This document shows, one piece after another, positions 179 through 33,565 of a DNA stretch of 64,000 nucleotides. How positions within the stretch are numbered: the stretch's first letter is position 1; each line of letters starts with the position of its first letter. The DNA lies in sequence record PX930852.1; one strand, given 5' to 3'. The notes under the pieces are model-generated. The model searched no databases. It was not told where the DNA came from and worked only from the letters and a program-made list of their open reading frames with translations. A program made the position numbers and the translations under genes. This DNA is from a phage.

Positions 179-368
179 TACCTGCACAATTCTAAAATGA
201 TTTTTCTTGCCCGACCTGAGCGGGGTCTGCACGTTTTGAAAATGAAAAAGCTCTTTGGAGATTACCTGCACAGTTTGAAAATGAATTTTCTCTTTGGAGT
301 TCAAAATTTTCTCTATAGATTTCTCTACAGAACTCTACCTGCACAAATCTGAAATGAAAAAGCCCTCC
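179..368. repeat. Four tandem direct repeats of a ~20-35 bp unit (core CTGCACANTTTNAAAATGA, some followed by CTCTTTGGAG) in a non-coding leader
   Basis: Copies seen at about 179-200, 227-260, 264-299 and 337-368; no credible ORF spans the region. Confidence 0.6.
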
Positions 369-430
369 TTACCTGAAAAATTTACCAGATAAGAAAGGCT
401 TAGGCTATTGTGAATATCCTACAGAGTTTC

Positions 431-1983: not shown

Positions 1984-2248
1984 AGTATTGAAGGTACGGC
2001 AACAGTTCTTTTACCTGTTCTTGATTGAGTTTCATTCTTTGGTTACCTACAAAATCTTTGCCTACTAATGCTGGGATATCAAGTGTTTTCCAGCCACCAT
2101 CTAGGTACTGAACAGAGACCTCTTTAGCACCTAACCAGATACATGGTTCATATGATGAACTCTCTTGTAAAGTACAAATTTCCCCTTTAGCATCTTTAAA
2201 TTCTGCATAAGAAAATCCACGATTTGTTGGCTGGAATTGCATAATCAT
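1934..2248 (-). CDS. Hypothetical protein
   Basis: ORF in co-directional block. Confidence 0.35.
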   Translation of the reverse strand: MIMQFQPTNRGFSYAEFKDAKGEICTLQESSSYEPCIWLGAKEVSVQYLDGGWKTLDIPALVGKDFVGNQRMKLNQEQVKELLPYLQYFAENGELPTEELTNAD

Positions 2249-2514
2249 TTCCTCGTTTTAAGAACTGCTAAGATTTCTTTAGAGTCTGGTAAGAACCATG
2301 TGTAGTGATTCTCTTTGATTTCTGGATGAGTGTCAACCTTTATTTTGCACTCTTTACCAACATGCTTAAGCTGTGCTGTGACACCTTGCATAAAGATATG
2401 ACACATCACGTTGTCCATAATGGTTGGTGAGAAATCAACACGCATATAAGTTTCTTTTGGTCGTGGTAGTAGTAAGTACCCTTCTACATAGAAAGTGTCT
2501 TCATTCTCTGTCAT
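2245..2514 (-). CDS. Hypothetical protein
   Basis: ORF with 4-bp stop/start overlaps to neighbours. Confidence 0.35.
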   Translation of the reverse strand: MTENEDTFYVEGYLLLPRPKETYMRVDFSPTIMDNVMCHIFMQGVTAQLKHVGKECKIKVDTHPEIKENHYTWFLPDSKEILAVLKTRK

Positions 2515-2780
2515 TGCTGTTTGTTTCCTAATAAAATCATATCAATAAGGTTATTAGCTTTGATTGTGCACTGGTAAAAGCCGTCACGATAGAACTCAAG
2601 GGCTGCTGCTACATCGCTGCCTGTGTTGCCTTTGATGATATACCGTGATTCTTCTTGGGTGTACTTATCACCCTCACTTACTTGGGAGTTTTTGAATGTA
2701 CTGCTCACTTTGTTCGTTGAACACCCTGACATAGTTATCAGTAACACAAACATTATAAAACTCTGGCTTAGTTTTTTCAT
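2511..2780 (-). CDS. Predicted lipoprotein; candidate outer-membrane spanin (Rz1-like)
   Basis: N-terminal signal with lipobox-like LITMSGC; gene starts inside the 3' end of the upstream membrane-protein gene in another frame. Confidence 0.4.
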   Translation of the reverse strand: MKKLSQSFIMFVLLITMSGCSTNKVSSTFKNSQVSEGDKYTQEESRYIIKGNTGSDVAAALEFYRDGFYQCTIKANNLIDMILLGNKQQ

Positions 2781-3021
2781 ATGTTAGTACCTCTTTTGTA
2801 TGCTTATTCTTAGCAAGCACATCTTTCAAATCATTTTTGTAATTGGTGCTGAGTGTGGCTAAACCTTCCTGATAAGCATCTTTAGCAACACTTATTAGTT
2901 TCTCATTATTTAGCTCAGTTTCAGCAACTTGATAGTCTCTGTAAGAGTATCCTCCCCAGACACCTGCACCAACTAAGAAAACAATTATGAAAGTAGCTTG
3001 ACAGAACTCTTTAAATGTCAT
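2674..3021 (-). CDS. Membrane protein with N-terminal TM helix and helical periplasmic region; candidate inner-membrane spanin (Rz-like)
   Basis: TM segment FIIVFLVGAGVWGGY followed by charged helical sequence; overlapped by the lipoprotein gene. Confidence 0.4.
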   Translation of the reverse strand: MTFKEFCQATFIIVFLVGAGVWGGYSYRDYQVAETELNNEKLISVAKDAYQEGLATLSTNYKNDLKDVLAKNKHTKEVLTYEKTKPEFYNVCVTDNYVRVFNEQSEQYIQKLPSK

Positions 3022-3035
3022 TTAACAATCTCCTA

Positions 3036-3061
3036 AAATGAAAAAGGCTCCCGAAGGAGCC
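3036..3061 (-). terminator. Rho-independent terminator (GGCTCC-CGAA-GGAGCC hairpin plus T-run on minus strand)
   Basis: Perfect 6-bp GC-rich stem with tetraloop, followed by a T-run on the minus strand. Confidence 0.55.
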
Positions 3062-3073
3062 TGTATCTTAACC

Positions 3074-3538
3074 TTAACCGAGGACTTTAGCAAGGATATT
3101 CGCAGCCATCGAAGAAGCTTTTGCAGCAGCAACTACGCCAGCTTTGACAGTGCTATCCTTAATAGCAGATACCGTTGCAGCATCAGTAAAGAGATAAGTG
3201 ATTGTTTTAGAACCACTTGTAAAGGAAAGCATAAGAGTAGTTTCCAGATTGAAAGAGCGATACGGAGCACCTTCTTTAACGATACCTTCAGCACCTAACT
3301 CTGAAGCCTTGCCCATATCATAGATAGTCATCAGGTTTTCTTTGTGTGCAGTAGTTGAACCAGCACCTTTTACGTGTTTTTTAACATTCAATAATGCACG
3401 ATATTCACGAATGCTGCCATCAGCTTTTACATTAACAGCACGAAAAATTTTACCTTCAAAGTTACCTTGAATCATTTTACGAACTATTGCAGATTTGTTT
3501 ACCGTATCGTCCAGTGCTACCGTAATGATATTGTTCAT
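3074..3538 (-). CDS. Hypothetical protein
   Basis: 154-aa ORF with no recognisable motif. Confidence 0.4.
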   Translation of the reverse strand: MNNIITVALDDTVNKSAIVRKMIQGNFEGKIFRAVNVKADGSIREYRALLNVKKHVKGAGSTTAHKENLMTIYDMGKASELGAEGIVKEGAPYRSFNLETTLMLSFTSGSKTITYLFTDAATVSAIKDSTVKAGVVAAAKASSMAANILAKVLG

Positions 3539-3548
3539 AAGTTTTCTC

Positions 3549-4244
3549 TCAATGTTTAACTAACATGGTTTTAATGTGTGGAAGGATTCTGTTCACCTTC
3601 TGCACATTCTTCTCTGTGTCTTCTATAAAACATACTATATTAAAGTAAGGCAGGATGCAAGACTGAATCATCCTCACTTTCAAACTTTCTGCACTTATAG
3701 AGTTAGTCCCAAAACCACGCATAAAAAGCATGTAATCATGCTCTATGTAATGCCTTAAAAACATCTCAGTAGGTATTCTCTGAGATTCACCTCTCGCTGT
3801 CAAGAGTCCAATGGCGGCATGATTAGCAATTGCATCAATAATATTGAAAACATACGTTGGTTTTGCTCTTACAGAGTCAAGCAAATTAGTGTACTGTGAA
3901 AATGACCCATCAATCAATTCCGTTGAGCAATCTTCGTGATTAAAATTTGTAAGAACACCATCAATGTCTGCTAAGATAAGGTTACCTTTTTCTACAAGGT
4001 CTTTATTGACTATGACTAAGCTATCACGACTTACGCCTATAGTTTGTCCAGTCTCTTTATCTACAACATTCACAATTGGCTCTGATGTGTGGAACTCTTC
4101 AAGTGAACATACAACTTCTCTTGCAGTGTCTTCAAAATCCCTACACTGTTCTGGAGTCCATACACAGGAATCAAGACCTAACTCATGAGGATGTAAGTCA
4201 TAAGCATGACACAGTACTTCATCAGACTTTCTTAATTTTTTCAT
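3549..4244 (-). CDS. HAD-superfamily phosphatase-like protein (possible nucleotidase)
   Basis: DIDGVLTNF (HAD motif I, DxDG) and GLLTAR (motif II-like). Confidence 0.4.
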   Translation of the reverse strand: MKKLRKSDEVLCHAYDLHPHELGLDSCVWTPEQCRDFEDTAREVVCSLEEFHTSEPIVNVVDKETGQTIGVSRDSLVIVNKDLVEKGNLILADIDGVLTNFNHEDCSTELIDGSFSQYTNLLDSVRAKPTYVFNIIDAIANHAAIGLLTARGESQRIPTEMFLRHYIEHDYMLFMRGFGTNSISAESLKVRMIQSCILPYFNIVCFIEDTEKNVQKVNRILPHIKTMLVKH

Positions 4245-4770
4245 GATTTACCTTAGAAATGTTTGTTGCAAATTCACATTGAGCAATTACTTTCATGTTG
4301 TTATAGACATCTTGAGAATACTTCTTAGCTTTAGGGATTCTGTACGAATACCCAGCATTATATGATGCTAAAACTTTTTGTAAAGTCTTCTTTGACTTTG
4401 GCTGACCATGTACCTTTGTCCAAAACTCAAGCTCTTTGTGAGTTTCCTTCGCAGCATAATCAAAGTCTCTTAAGAGTTTCTTTTTAGCTACATTAGGGCT
4501 AATTTTGTTACGCTTTACAACAGTCTTCAAGTGATTCTGGAAAATACCATAATCATGTGTCTTTTTATTCTCTACCTTCAGACCTAACTCTGACTCTTGT
4601 AAGGCTATAGCAGCTAGAGTGATACCCCAACCTTTACCCATGTTATTCTCACCATACTGGTAAGCTTTTAACATGTTTACTTTTTGGCTAATTGATAGCT
4701 CTGGGCAGTCGACTGCATAAGATAAGTGTGCTGTAAACATTAAGCACAAACCTAGAATCAATTTCTTCAT
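4222..4770 (-). CDS. Secreted lytic transglycosylase (SLT domain), probable endolysin or cell-wall hydrolase
   Basis: N-terminal signal peptide; AIALQESELG (catalytic Glu-Ser), YGIFQ and LASYNAG motifs typical of SLT family. Confidence 0.6.
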   Translation of the reverse strand: MKKLILGLCLMFTAHLSYAVDCPELSISQKVNMLKAYQYGENNMGKGWGITLAAIALQESELGLKVENKKTHDYGIFQNHLKTVVKRNKISPNVAKKKLLRDFDYAAKETHKELEFWTKVHGQPKSKKTLQKVLASYNAGYSYRIPKAKKYSQDVYNNMKVIAQCEFATNISKVNHEKIKKV

Positions 4771-4831: not shown

Positions 4832-4858
4832 AAAAAAGGCCGCCGGAGCAGCCTTTTA
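4832..4858 (-). terminator. Candidate rho-independent terminator
   Basis: GC-rich hairpin AAAGGCCGCC..GCAGCCTTT flanked by A/T runs, between convergently ending minus-strand genes. Confidence 0.4.
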
Positions 4859-8963: not shown

Positions 8964-8986
8964 TTAAAAAGGCTCCCGTAGGAGCC
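8964..8986 (-). terminator. Rho-independent terminator (GGCTCC-CGTA-GGAGCC plus T-run)
   Basis: Perfect stem-loop followed by T-run on minus strand, downstream of the NAMPT-family gene. Confidence 0.55.
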
Positions 8987-9001
8987 TCTTATCATATACT
9001 T

Positions 9002-33084: not shown

Positions 33085-33299
33085 CACTTGCAGACGTTAT
33101 TCAGCAACTTCACGACAACTGCTATACTCCAGAGTTGATTCAGGAGATGTGTATTGTAGTGATGCCTAGCAAGTTCGTAAAAGCCTTTAACAGTGACACT
33201 TTAAGGTCTGCACACATTCTTATTGTTGAAGGTAAGATTGCAAAAGACCGTACTGGAGTACTCAAAGGTGAGCGTATTGATATTCTGGAGTTGCTATGA
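33081..33299 (+). CDS. Hypothetical protein
   Basis: ATGA start/stop overlap with the upstream gene. Confidence 0.4.
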   Translation: MTLADVIQQLHDNCYTPELIQEMCIVVMPSKFVKAFNSDTLRSAHILIVEGKIAKDRTGVLKGERIDILELL

Positions 33300-33565
33300 A
33301 GAAAATGTACAGTCTCTGGGGAAGTATTATGTGGAAAGCAGTAATTGCGCTTGGTGTTGTTTTTCTATCTGGCTGCAACCCTTCTTATGAAGATAAAAAT
33401 GCTTCTTACAGTCTCCCACCAGAGATGCAAGATTGCAGAGTATACAAGTTACATGGTGATGCTATAAGCAGAGATATTGTTGTTGTCAGATGTCCAAACT
33501 CCCAAACAACAACATCTTATAGCTATGGCAAAAATGGTCAATCACACACTACGGTTATTGAGTGA
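33296..33565 (+). CDS. Predicted lipoprotein
   Basis: Signal peptide with lipobox VVFLSGC. Confidence 0.5.
   Translation: MKKMYSLWGSIMWKAVIALGVVFLSGCNPSYEDKNASYSLPPEMQDCRVYKLHGDAISRDIVVVRCPNSQTTTSYSYGKNGQSHTTVIE

What the first reader, a model, noticed from the sequence alone, without database searches (positions are those of the whole stretch)
2511..3021. Overlapped membrane protein and lipoprotein gene pair resembling Rz/Rz1 spanins
A 115-aa protein with an N-terminal TM helix and helical periplasmic domain (2674-3021) is overlapped at its 3' end, in a different frame, by an 89-aa lipoprotein gene (2511-2780, lipobox-like LITMSGC). This is the classic embedded or overlapped two-component spanin architecture, and it lies about 1.2 kb from a secreted SLT-domain transglycosylase (4222-4770).
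Basis: inference. Interest (0 to 1): 0.45.

Follow-up and report, generated by a model that had tools for sequence, protein, structure and literature searches.

The report
Felix O1-type overlapped spanin gene pair
This is the already catalogued inner-membrane/outer-membrane "spanin" gene pair of a Felix O1-like phage, which most likely breaks the host's outer membrane at the last step of lysis, so the finding is correct but ordinary.

Summary
On the minus strand, a 115-aa membrane-anchored protein (2674-3021) is overlapped by 107 nt, in the +1 frame, by an 89-aa lipoprotein gene (2511-2780).

The window is a Felixounavirus, 95-96% identical in nucleotide sequence to published phages. The pair differs by 2 residues each from Felix O1 p014/p015. 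SpaninDB (Kongari et al. 2018) lists those as an overlapped i-spanin/o-spanin pair with the same 348-nt gene and 107-nt overlap. Several GenBank relatives already annotate both genes.

My own tests agree:
- All 41 loci examined keep both ORFs, the +1 register and a lipobox Cys followed by Ser/Thr.
- Wobble-position variation switches frame exactly at the gene boundaries and is suppressed in the overlap.
- Distant homologues sit directly after holin and endolysin genes in two unrelated phages.

There is no detectable sequence homology to lambda Rz/Rz1 or T4 PseT.3/PseT.2. It is a spanin by class, not a member of the Rz family. I found no experimental test of this family.

Verdict: already known, low interest.

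The parts
2674..3021 (-). i-spanin gene (115 aa). It has an N-terminal transmembrane anchor, a predicted helical periplasmic domain, and a conserved C-terminal motif EK..P.F.N.C..D.Y.R[VM]FNE containing Cys92.
   Evidence: ORF. phrog_1152 'Rz-like spanin' at 8e-42 over residues 1-115. 2 of 115 residues differ from Felix O1 p014 in SpaninDB. Invariant residues. Purifying selection.
2511..2780 (-). o-spanin gene (89 aa precursor). It has a 19-aa signal peptide, lipobox TMSG|C, and a 70-aa mature lipoprotein with a conserved C-terminal motif LE[FW]Y.D.Y..C....NGL containing Cys71.
   Evidence: ORF. phrog_4180 at 1e-49, phrog_2425 at 4e-9 and phrog_456 'Rz-like spanin' at 2e-3. 2 of 89 residues differ from Felix O1 p015. 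Invariant C20, S21, T22, G54, C71, N76 and L78. Codon periodicity in its own frame downstream of the overlap.
2674..2780 (-). 107-nt dual-coding overlap. It encodes the i-spanin C-terminus (frame 0) and the o-spanin signal peptide and first mature residues (frame +1).
   Evidence: Same 107-nt overlap as Felix O1, wV8, UAB_Phi87 and Moogle in SpaninDB. Variable-site fraction is only 0.17-0.28 at all three phase classes, against 0.71-0.84 at wobble sites outside the overlap.
2713..2724 (-). GTG-TTC-AAC-GAA. It encodes V-F-N-E of the i-spanin and, shifted by one base, the lipidated Cys20 (2721-2723) followed by Ser-Thr of the o-spanin.
   Evidence: In 41 of 41 loci the lipobox Cys codon starts exactly 1 nt after the start of the [VML][FY]NE motif.
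2941..3006 (-). Transmembrane anchor region of the i-spanin, about residues 6-27 (FCQATFIIVFLVGAGVWGGYSY).
   Evidence: The highest Kyte-Doolittle 19-residue window is at residues 6-24, score 1.75. SpaninDB places the periplasmic domain from R28. N-in/C-out orientation is inferred from flank charges using the positive-inside rule.
2724..2780 (-). o-spanin signal peptide, residues 1-19 (MKKLSQSFIMFVLLITMSG), cleaved before Cys20.
   Evidence: Pattern test. SpaninDB lists a 19-aa signal and lipobox TMSG. The alternative internal start M10, used in the nataliec annotation, is absent in L031 and L032.
3030..3034 (-). Shine-Dalgarno sequence AGGAG of the i-spanin, 8 nt upstream of its ATG.
   Evidence: Sequence. 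Same element listed for Felix O1 in SpaninDB.
2789..2793 (-). Shine-Dalgarno sequence GAGGT of the o-spanin, 8 nt upstream of its ATG and inside the i-spanin coding sequence.
   Evidence: Sequence. aaagaggt is kept in all Felixounavirus, Mooglevirus and Suspvirus loci. Listed in SpaninDB.
3045..3062 (-). Terminator-like GC-rich hairpin plus T-run between the upstream gene (3074..3538) and the i-spanin ribosome-binding site.
   Evidence: 7-pair stem, 5 G-C pairs, TTTTTCATTTT tail. Sequence. Its function was not tested.
2511..2514 (-). ATGA stop/start overlap between the o-spanin and the next gene (2245..2514, unknown function).

Best explanation
The locus is the two-component spanin of a Felix O1-like myophage, in the overlapped arrangement.

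Inferred mechanism, by analogy with lambda Rz/Rz1 and T4 PseT.3/PseT.2:
1. The 115-aa product inserts into the inner membrane through its N-terminal helix, with about 88 mostly helical residues in the periplasm.
2. [quoted passage not shown] Ser rather than Asp at position +2 supports this sorting.
3. Their conserved C-terminal segments bind each other across the periplasm, and each chain probably forms a homodimer through its single conserved periplasmic cysteine (Cys92 and Cys71).
4. The complex is held in check by the peptidoglycan mesh.
5. Once holin and endolysin, encoded elsewhere in the genome, destroy the wall, the complex collapses and fuses or disrupts the two membranes. That completes lysis.

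What is shown here: gene structure, targeting signals, dual-frame purifying selection, family identity, and association of homologues with lysis cassettes.

What is inferred: membrane topology, lipidation, complex formation, disulfides and outer-membrane disruption.
For: - Identity: the window is a Felixounavirus. The pair differs by 2 residues each from Felix O1 p014/p015, catalogued in SpaninDB as an overlapped i-spanin/o-spanin pair with a 107-nt overlap, lipobox TMSG|C and one periplasmic Cys each (PMC6139136). Relatives are annotated i-spanin/o-spanin.
- HMM match: the i-spanin hits phrog_1152 'Rz-like spanin' at 8e-42.
- Signals: a single hydrophobic anchor, a lipoprotein signal, and Ser at +2.
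- Both genes are real: the periodicity of variation switches frames at the boundaries and is suppressed in the overlap, the dN/dS-like ratio is about 0.14 in each gene, and no stop codons arise.
- The pair is inherited as a unit: 41 of 41 loci keep it with an identical +1 register. They cover Ounavirinae (Felixounavirus, Mooglevirus, Kolesnikvirus, Hafnia phage SarahDanielle), Escherichia phage AidaStucki_Bas93 (unclassified Caudoviricetes), a Gorganvirus and a Klebsiella phage.
- Guilt by association: in Proteus phage 2207-N35 the homologous pair directly follows Phage_holin_8 (52 bits) and a CHAP-domain endolysin. In Klebsiella phage e270.2 it follows a GH108+PG_binding_3 endolysin.
- Conserved periplasmic cysteines occur in both partners, as in 507 of 528 catalogued two-component spanins.
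- Felix O1-like phages are known to scatter their lysis genes (PMC4319497).
Against: - I found no experimental test of this spanin family in the literature searches.
- There is no sequence homology to the experimentally studied spanins: lambda Rz 0.3% and Rz1 6.9% hhalign probability, and T4 PseT.3 0.5% and PseT.2 30%, with the o-spanin matches (Rz1, PseT.2) confined to the signal peptide/lipobox and the PseT.3 match to the transmembrane anchor.
- The o-spanin has no proline, unlike Rz1.
- The pair is not next to a holin or endolysin in this genome.
- It sits behind a terminator-like hairpin with no obvious promoter of its own.
- The AlphaFold2 models are low confidence, with pLDDT 60 and 49. 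The structural picture is therefore weak.
Confidence: 0.88

Rival explanations
1. The membrane protein and lipoprotein form an envelope complex with a non-lytic role. Examples would be superinfection exclusion or receptor masking by an outer-membrane lipoprotein, expressed with the surrounding early-type genes (rIIA/rIIB, phosphatase, nucleotide metabolism).
For: The pair is unlinked from the endolysin. It lies in a block of small genes of unknown function next to rIIA/rIIB. No lysis experiment exists for this family. PHROGs lists the lipoprotein families phrog_4180 and phrog_2425 as 'unknown function'.
Against: Homologous pairs occupy the spanin slot of canonical holin-endolysin cassettes in two unrelated phages. 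The obligate pairing and locked overlap with a type-II membrane protein in 41 of 41 loci is the spanin signature. T4 spanins are likewise unlinked from t and e. Without this pair, the phage would have no recognisable means of outer-membrane disruption.
Confidence: 0.05
2. Only the 115-aa protein acts in lysis, for example as a holin or antiholin-like single-pass membrane protein. The lipoprotein would be an independent gene that merely overlaps it.
For: The holin of Felix O1-like phages is not firmly identified (PMC4837284). The 115-aa protein has a single transmembrane domain with a periplasmic domain, which superficially resembles the T4 T holin topology (my own knowledge).
Against: In Proteus phage 2207-N35 a separate Phage_holin_8 protein precedes the homologous pair. 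The protein matches the 'Rz-like spanin' PHROG end to end. The two genes co-occur with a fixed register in all loci, which argues for a functional unit.
Confidence: 0.03
3. The 89-aa ORF is a chance alternative-frame ORF that is not translated.
For: A lipobox-type pattern arises by chance about 1.35 times per shuffled 64 kb. Gene callers often omit or truncate this ORF (vB_Si_DR094).
Against: 163 nt of the ORF lie outside any other gene and show strong periodicity in their own frame (0.84 of position-3 sites variable, against 0.15-0.28 at positions 1 and 2) with a dN/dS-like ratio of 0.14. The ORF, its Shine-Dalgarno sequence, its start and its lipobox are kept in 41 of 41 loci, down to 25-30% identity.
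Confidence: 0.01

Closest known systems
Felix O1 p014/p015 spanin pair (SpaninDB family 'JH2'; also wV8, UAB_Phi87, Moogle, Mushroom)
   Same: Same genes. 113 of 115 and 87 of 89 residues are identical. The i-spanin gene is 348 nt, the overlap is 107 nt, the Shine-Dalgarno motifs match, the lipobox is TMSG|C, and each partner has one periplasmic Cys.
   Different: Only point substitutions: Q40E and V55A in the i-spanin, and N26S and S37G in the o-spanin.
Lambda Rz/Rz1 (prototype two-component spanin)
   Same: A type-II inner-membrane protein plus a small outer-membrane lipoprotein, encoded in the +1 frame of the same DNA. Both have periplasmic cysteines, and the role is presumed to be the same in outer-membrane disruption.
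   Different: No detectable homology. The arrangement is overlapped rather than fully embedded. The o-spanin is longer (70 against 40 mature residues), has no proline, and has a predicted C-terminal helical segment instead of a proline-rich unstructured chain. It is not part of an S-R-Rz cassette.
T4 PseT.3/PseT.2
   Same: Similar sizes (117/83 aa against 115/89 aa). The o-spanin lacks a proline-rich region and has a predicted C-terminal helix. The genes are unlinked from holin and endolysin. Both lie within two genes of a polynucleotide kinase/phosphatase gene.
   Different: No homology beyond the lipobox. The T4 genes are 'separated', with only a 4-nt overlap. The T4 i-spanin has no periplasmic Cys and its o-spanin has two. 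The gene order relative to the kinase gene differs.
P2 LysB/LysC (prototype of the overlapped architecture; my own knowledge, with P2 listed in SpaninDB)
   Same: The o-spanin gene starts inside the i-spanin gene and extends beyond it.
   Different: It is a different sequence family and sits in a contiguous lysis cassette.

Membership tests
Two-component spanin, overlapped class (functional class of Summer et al. 2007 and Kongari et al. 2018) | i-spanin: a small protein with a single N-terminal transmembrane anchor and a periplasmic, largely helical domain | tested here: met
   One hydrophobic segment at residues 6-24 (Kyte-Doolittle score 1.75). SpaninDB gives a periplasmic domain of 88 aa that is 66% helix. 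The AF2 model is all-helical but low confidence. Topology is inferred, not measured.
Two-component spanin, overlapped class (functional class of Summer et al. 2007 and Kongari et al. 2018) | o-spanin: a small lipoprotein with a signal peptidase II signal, a lipobox Cys and an outer-membrane sorting residue (no Asp at +2) | tested here: met
   MKKLSQSFIMFVLLITMSG|C-S-T passes the PROSITE-type rule. Cys-Ser/Thr is kept in 41 of 41 loci. No SignalP or LipoP was available.
Two-component spanin, overlapped class (functional class of Summer et al. 2007 and Kongari et al. 2018) | The o-spanin gene starts inside the i-spanin gene in another frame and ends beyond it | tested here: met
   107-nt overlap in the +1 frame. 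Both frames are under purifying selection.
Two-component spanin, overlapped class (functional class of Summer et al. 2007 and Kongari et al. 2018) | At least one periplasmic cysteine available for homotypic intermolecular disulfides (near-universal rather than strictly defining) | tested here: met
   Cys92 (i) and Cys71 (o) are invariant across the family. Bond formation was not tested.
Two-component spanin, overlapped class (functional class of Summer et al. 2007 and Kongari et al. 2018) | Association with holin/endolysin genes (supporting rather than defining; T4 is also unlinked) | tested here: met
   Met at family level. Homologous pairs follow holin and endolysin in Proteus phage 2207-N35 and Klebsiella phage e270.2. 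In this genome the pair is unlinked, with the endolysin about 15 kb away and outside the window.
Two-component spanin, overlapped class (functional class of Summer et al. 2007 and Kongari et al. 2018) | The i/o complex spans the periplasm and is required for outer-membrane disruption (complements lambda RzRz1) | not testable with these tools
   No experiment on this family was found in the literature searches.
Felix O1 spanin family (SpaninDB 'JH2' family; phrog_1152 with phrog_4180/2425) | Sequence membership of both partners | tested here: met
   98% identity to Felix O1 p014/p015. phrog_1152 at 8e-42 and phrog_4180 at 1e-49.
Lambda Rz (Pfam Phage_lysis) and Rz1 (Pfam Rz1) sequence families (family names from memory) | Match to the family HMMs, or detectable homology to lambda Rz and Rz1 | tested here: not met
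   No Rz or Rz1 family among the Pfam hits at E<=0.1. hhalign probability is 0.3% against Rz, and 6.9% against Rz1 with the match in the signal peptide only.
Lambda Rz (Pfam Phage_lysis) and Rz1 (Pfam Rz1) sequence families (family names from memory) | Proline-rich region in the o-spanin and a fully embedded gene arrangement | tested here: not met
   0 Pro in 89 residues. The gene extends 163 nt beyond the i-spanin stop.
T4 PseT.3/PseT.2 spanin family | Detectable homology to T4 PseT.3 and PseT.2 | tested here: not met
   hhalign probability is 0.5% for the i-spanin. It is 30% for the o-spanin, over 11 lipobox residues only.

The most novel reading that the evidence does not exclude
The pair might not be a lysis spanin at all in Felix O1-like phages. 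It could instead be an envelope-bridging complex with another role, such as exclusion or envelope remodelling, since it is expressed from a gene block far from the endolysin and behind a terminator-like hairpin.

A milder version keeps it as a spanin but with a mechanistically distinct type. In that version a proline-free, helix-forming o-spanin contacts the i-spanin through the FNE-containing C-terminus. That C-terminus is co-encoded with the lipobox, so the conservation of each motif partly reflects the constraint from the other frame.
Probability: 0.05. Interest if true: 0.45.

Novelty: already known. Interest (0 to 1): 0.08.

Why it matters
It matters little beyond correct annotation. The pair is the catalogued spanin of a well-sequenced phage genus that is used in Salmonella and E. 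coli biocontrol.

The practical points are about annotation:
- Gene callers and databases still often drop or truncate the o-spanin.
- PHROGs v4 labels its families 'unknown function'.

The family would be a reasonable experimental model for a proline-free o-spanin.

Tried and rejected
- Pfam and NCBIfam scans of both proteins gave no meaningful family. The NCBIfam hits to lipoprotein signal regions are far below cutoff.
- hhalign against lambda Rz/Rz1 and T4 PseT.3/PseT.2 showed no homology. I therefore rejected filing the pair under those sequence families.
- PDB sequence searches with profiles of both partners returned nothing below E=0.4.
- AlphaFold2 gave pLDDT 60 for the o-spanin (26-sequence alignment) and 49 for the i-spanin (single sequence). 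That is too low to justify fold searches, so none were run and I used only the coarse helix pattern.
- The lipobox pattern alone is not significant against shuffles, so I relied on conservation instead.
- A tblastn search with the Felix O1-type endolysin against the window gave no hit (best E=0.64), so the endolysin is not in this window.
- I considered the shared neighbourhood with a polynucleotide kinase gene in T4 as possible synteny. I rejected it as weak. The window's 231-aa protein matches only the phosphatase part of PseT at E=0.012, and the gene order differs.
- The shorter o-spanin start at M10, used in the nataliec annotation, is rejected because that Met is absent in L031 and L032 and leaves no charged n-region.

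Full report
**What is in the sequence**

On the minus strand, the ORF listing gives a 115-aa ORF at 2674..3021 and an 89-aa ORF at 2511..2780. They share 107 nt (2674-2780), and the 89-aa frame is +1 relative to the 115-aa frame.

Each ATG is preceded at 8 nt by a Shine-Dalgarno sequence: AGGAG at 3030-3034 and GAGGT at 2789-2793. The 115-aa protein has one hydrophobic segment at residues 6-24, with a Kyte-Doolittle score of 1.75. The 89-aa protein begins MKKLSQSFIMFVLLITMSG|CSTNK and passes a PROSITE-type lipoprotein rule with Cys at position 20. Only the strand was left unstated.

**Where the window comes from**

The first 8 kb match 276 phage records. Of these, 210 match over at least 80% of the query, mostly at 90-96% identity, and they are mainly Felixounavirus (Felix O1-like myophages of Escherichia, Salmonella and Shigella). 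The minus-strand gene order is:

1. rIIA
2. rIIB
3. a 182-aa secreted SLT-like protein
4. a 231-aa 'polynucleotide kinase'
5. a 154-aa protein of unknown function
7. several small genes of unknown function
8. a macro-domain phosphatase

**Is it more than chance?**

The lipoprotein pattern alone is not. Shuffled windows give 1.35 such ORFs per 64 kb, and the real window has two. Conservation is decisive.

I collected 41 loci: the window, GenBank loci L001-L008 and L043, and IMG/VR loci L009-L039. Every one keeps both ORFs, the +1 register and a lipobox Cys followed by Ser/Thr. Among 29 distinct colinear 511-nt sequences, the fraction of variable sites behaves as follows:

| Region | Wobble position | Fraction variable |
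|---|---|---|
| i-only part | i-frame position 3 | 0.71 |
| o-only part | o-frame position 3 | 0.84 |
| Overlap | i-frame position 3 | 0.28 |
| Overlap | o-frame position 3 | 0.20 |

The observed-to-possible ratios give a dN/dS-like value of about 0.14 for each gene, and no substitution creates a stop codon. Both ORFs are therefore real protein-coding genes, and the overlap is under double constraint.

The first ATG (2780) is the start. The internal Met used in one GenBank annotation is missing in L031 and L032.

**What it is**

The i-spanin matches phrog_1152 'Rz-like spanin' end to end at 8e-42. The lipoprotein matches phrog_4180 at 1e-49 and phrog_2425 at 4e-9, both labelled unknown function, and weakly phrog_456 'Rz-like spanin' at 2e-3.

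The literature settles the identity. The supplementary tables of Kongari et al. 2018 (PMC6139136) list Felix O1 p014 (115 aa) and p015 (89 aa) as an overlapped i-spanin/o-spanin pair, as follows:

- a 348-nt i-spanin gene and a 107-nt overlap
- Shine-Dalgarno motifs AGGAG and GAGGT
- a 19-aa signal and lipobox TMSG|C
- one periplasmic cysteine in each partner

The window's proteins differ from these by two residues each. GenBank relatives such as UAB_69 and nataliec already carry the i-spanin/o-spanin annotation. [quoted passage not shown]

**Independent support for a lysis role**

Distant members of both families (25-35% identity) occur as the same overlapped pair in other phage groups. Two of them occupy the spanin slot of textbook lysis cassettes:

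- **Proteus phage 2207-N35:** Phage_holin_8 (52 bits), an 86-aa protein, a CHAP-domain endolysin, the i-spanin (phrog_1152, 3e-18), then the o-spanin (phrog_2425, 4e-19).
- **Klebsiella phage e270.2:** a GH108+PG_binding_3 endolysin, an 80-aa membrane protein, the i-spanin, then an unannotated o-spanin.

In the present phage group the recognised endolysin (Felix O1 lysozyme homologue) lies about 15 kb away on the other strand. It is not in this window.

**How it most likely works**

The mechanism is inferred from the lambda and T4 paradigms summarised in PMC6139136.

1. The i-spanin is anchored N-in/C-out in the inner membrane. The flank charges fit this: about +1 on the N side and -2 on the C side.
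2. The o-spanin is lipidated at Cys20 and sent to the outer membrane, with Ser at +2.
3. The conserved C-terminal blocks are the likely contact surfaces. These are EK..P.F.N.C..D.Y.R[VM]FNE in the i-spanin and LE[FW]Y.D.Y..C....NGL in the o-spanin.
4. The invariant Cys92 and Cys71 are the likely sites of homotypic disulfides.
5. Once the wall is degraded, the complex brings the two membranes together and disrupts the outer membrane.

The AlphaFold2 models are low confidence. The o-spanin model (pLDDT 60) shows a disordered linker followed by helices at 54-75 and 78-87. The i-spanin model (pLDDT 49) is all-helical. I use them only as a coarse picture.

**A detail of the overlap**

In all 41 loci the lipobox Cys codon begins exactly one base into the i-spanin motif [VML][FY]NE. 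The twelve bases nTG-TTC-AAC-GAr encode V-F-N-E in one frame and Cys-Ser-Thr in the other. The invariance of 'FNE' in the i-spanin and of 'CST' in the o-spanin are therefore not independent observations. The register of the overlap predates the divergence of the family.

**Comparison with known families**

- **By class:** it is a two-component spanin of the overlapped type, and all sequence-level criteria are met.
- **By sequence:** it belongs to the Felix O1 / 'JH2' spanin family.
- **Lambda Rz/Rz1:** it is not a member of these sequence families. Pfam gives no such hit, and hhalign probabilities are 0.3% and 6.9%, the latter from the signal peptide only. There are no prolines, and the arrangement is not embedded.
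- **T4 PseT.3/PseT.2:** it is not related. It resembles T4 in size, in lacking a proline-rich region, in being unlinked from holin and endolysin, and, curiously, in lying two genes from a polynucleotide kinase/phosphatase gene. That last resemblance is weak.

**Verdict**

The feature is already known, both catalogued and annotated, although I found no experimental test of this particular family. Interest is low.

Noticed in passing
window 33296-33565 (+): This is the only other ORF in the window with a lipoprotein signal. It is 89 aa, MKKMYSLWGSIMWKAVIALGVVFLSG|CNPSY..., and matches phrog_902 (unknown function) at 7e-17. It lies just after the DNA polymerase gene by comparison with UAB_Phi87. 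It could be a superinfection-exclusion type lipoprotein, but its function is unknown.
   Followed up: partly
window 4222-4770 (-): This 182-aa protein has a signal-peptide-like N-terminus (MKKLILGLCLMFTAHLSYA) and the three hallmark motifs of family-1 lytic transglycosylases: QESELG, YGIFQN and SYNAGY. Its Pfam SLT score is only 18.9 bits against a cutoff of 21.3. It falls in phrog_600 (unknown function) and has no PDB sequence relative. Some records annotate it 'putative lysin'. Its role alongside the separate Felix O1-type lysozyme is unexplained.
   Followed up: partly
window 3045-3062 (-); also 4834-4857, 8967-8990 and 360-401 (-): Strong terminator-like hairpins punctuate the minus-strand gene block. 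The one at 3045-3062 fills the 52-nt gap in front of the i-spanin ribosome-binding site and leaves no room for a sigma-70 promoter. Spanin expression would then need read-through or an unrecognised phage promoter.
   Followed up: no
window 2713-2724 (-), and all 41 loci: GTG-TTC-AAC-GAA encodes both the invariant VFNE of the i-spanin and the lipidated Cys-Ser-Thr of the o-spanin. The one-base register is identical in every family member examined, down to 25-30% identity.
   Followed up: yes
PHROG families phrog_4180 and phrog_2425; database proteins P0009-P0043: The o-spanin families are labelled 'unknown function' in PHROGs v4, although they always pair with phrog_1152 'Rz-like spanin'. Many public protein entries for the o-spanin are N-terminally truncated to 73, 68 or 57 aa because gene callers avoid the overlap. 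Some genomes omit the gene entirely, for example Klebsiella phage e270.2 and vB_Si_DR094.
   Followed up: partly
window 3549-4244 (-), and T4 locus L045: T4's spanin genes pseT.3/pseT.2 also lie two genes from the polynucleotide kinase gene pseT. The window's 231-aa 'polynucleotide kinase' matches only the HAD-phosphatase part of PseT (DxDG motif, E=0.012), and the spanins themselves are not homologous. This is probably coincidence.
   Followed up: yes
search hits H34 and H64 (Campylobacter phage A126 MG065668.1; Staphylococcus phage SA1 GU169904.1): Records labelled as Campylobacter and Staphylococcus phages carry 94-100% identical copies of these Felix O1-type spanin genes. This suggests chimeric or contaminated assemblies in the public collection.
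   Followed up: no
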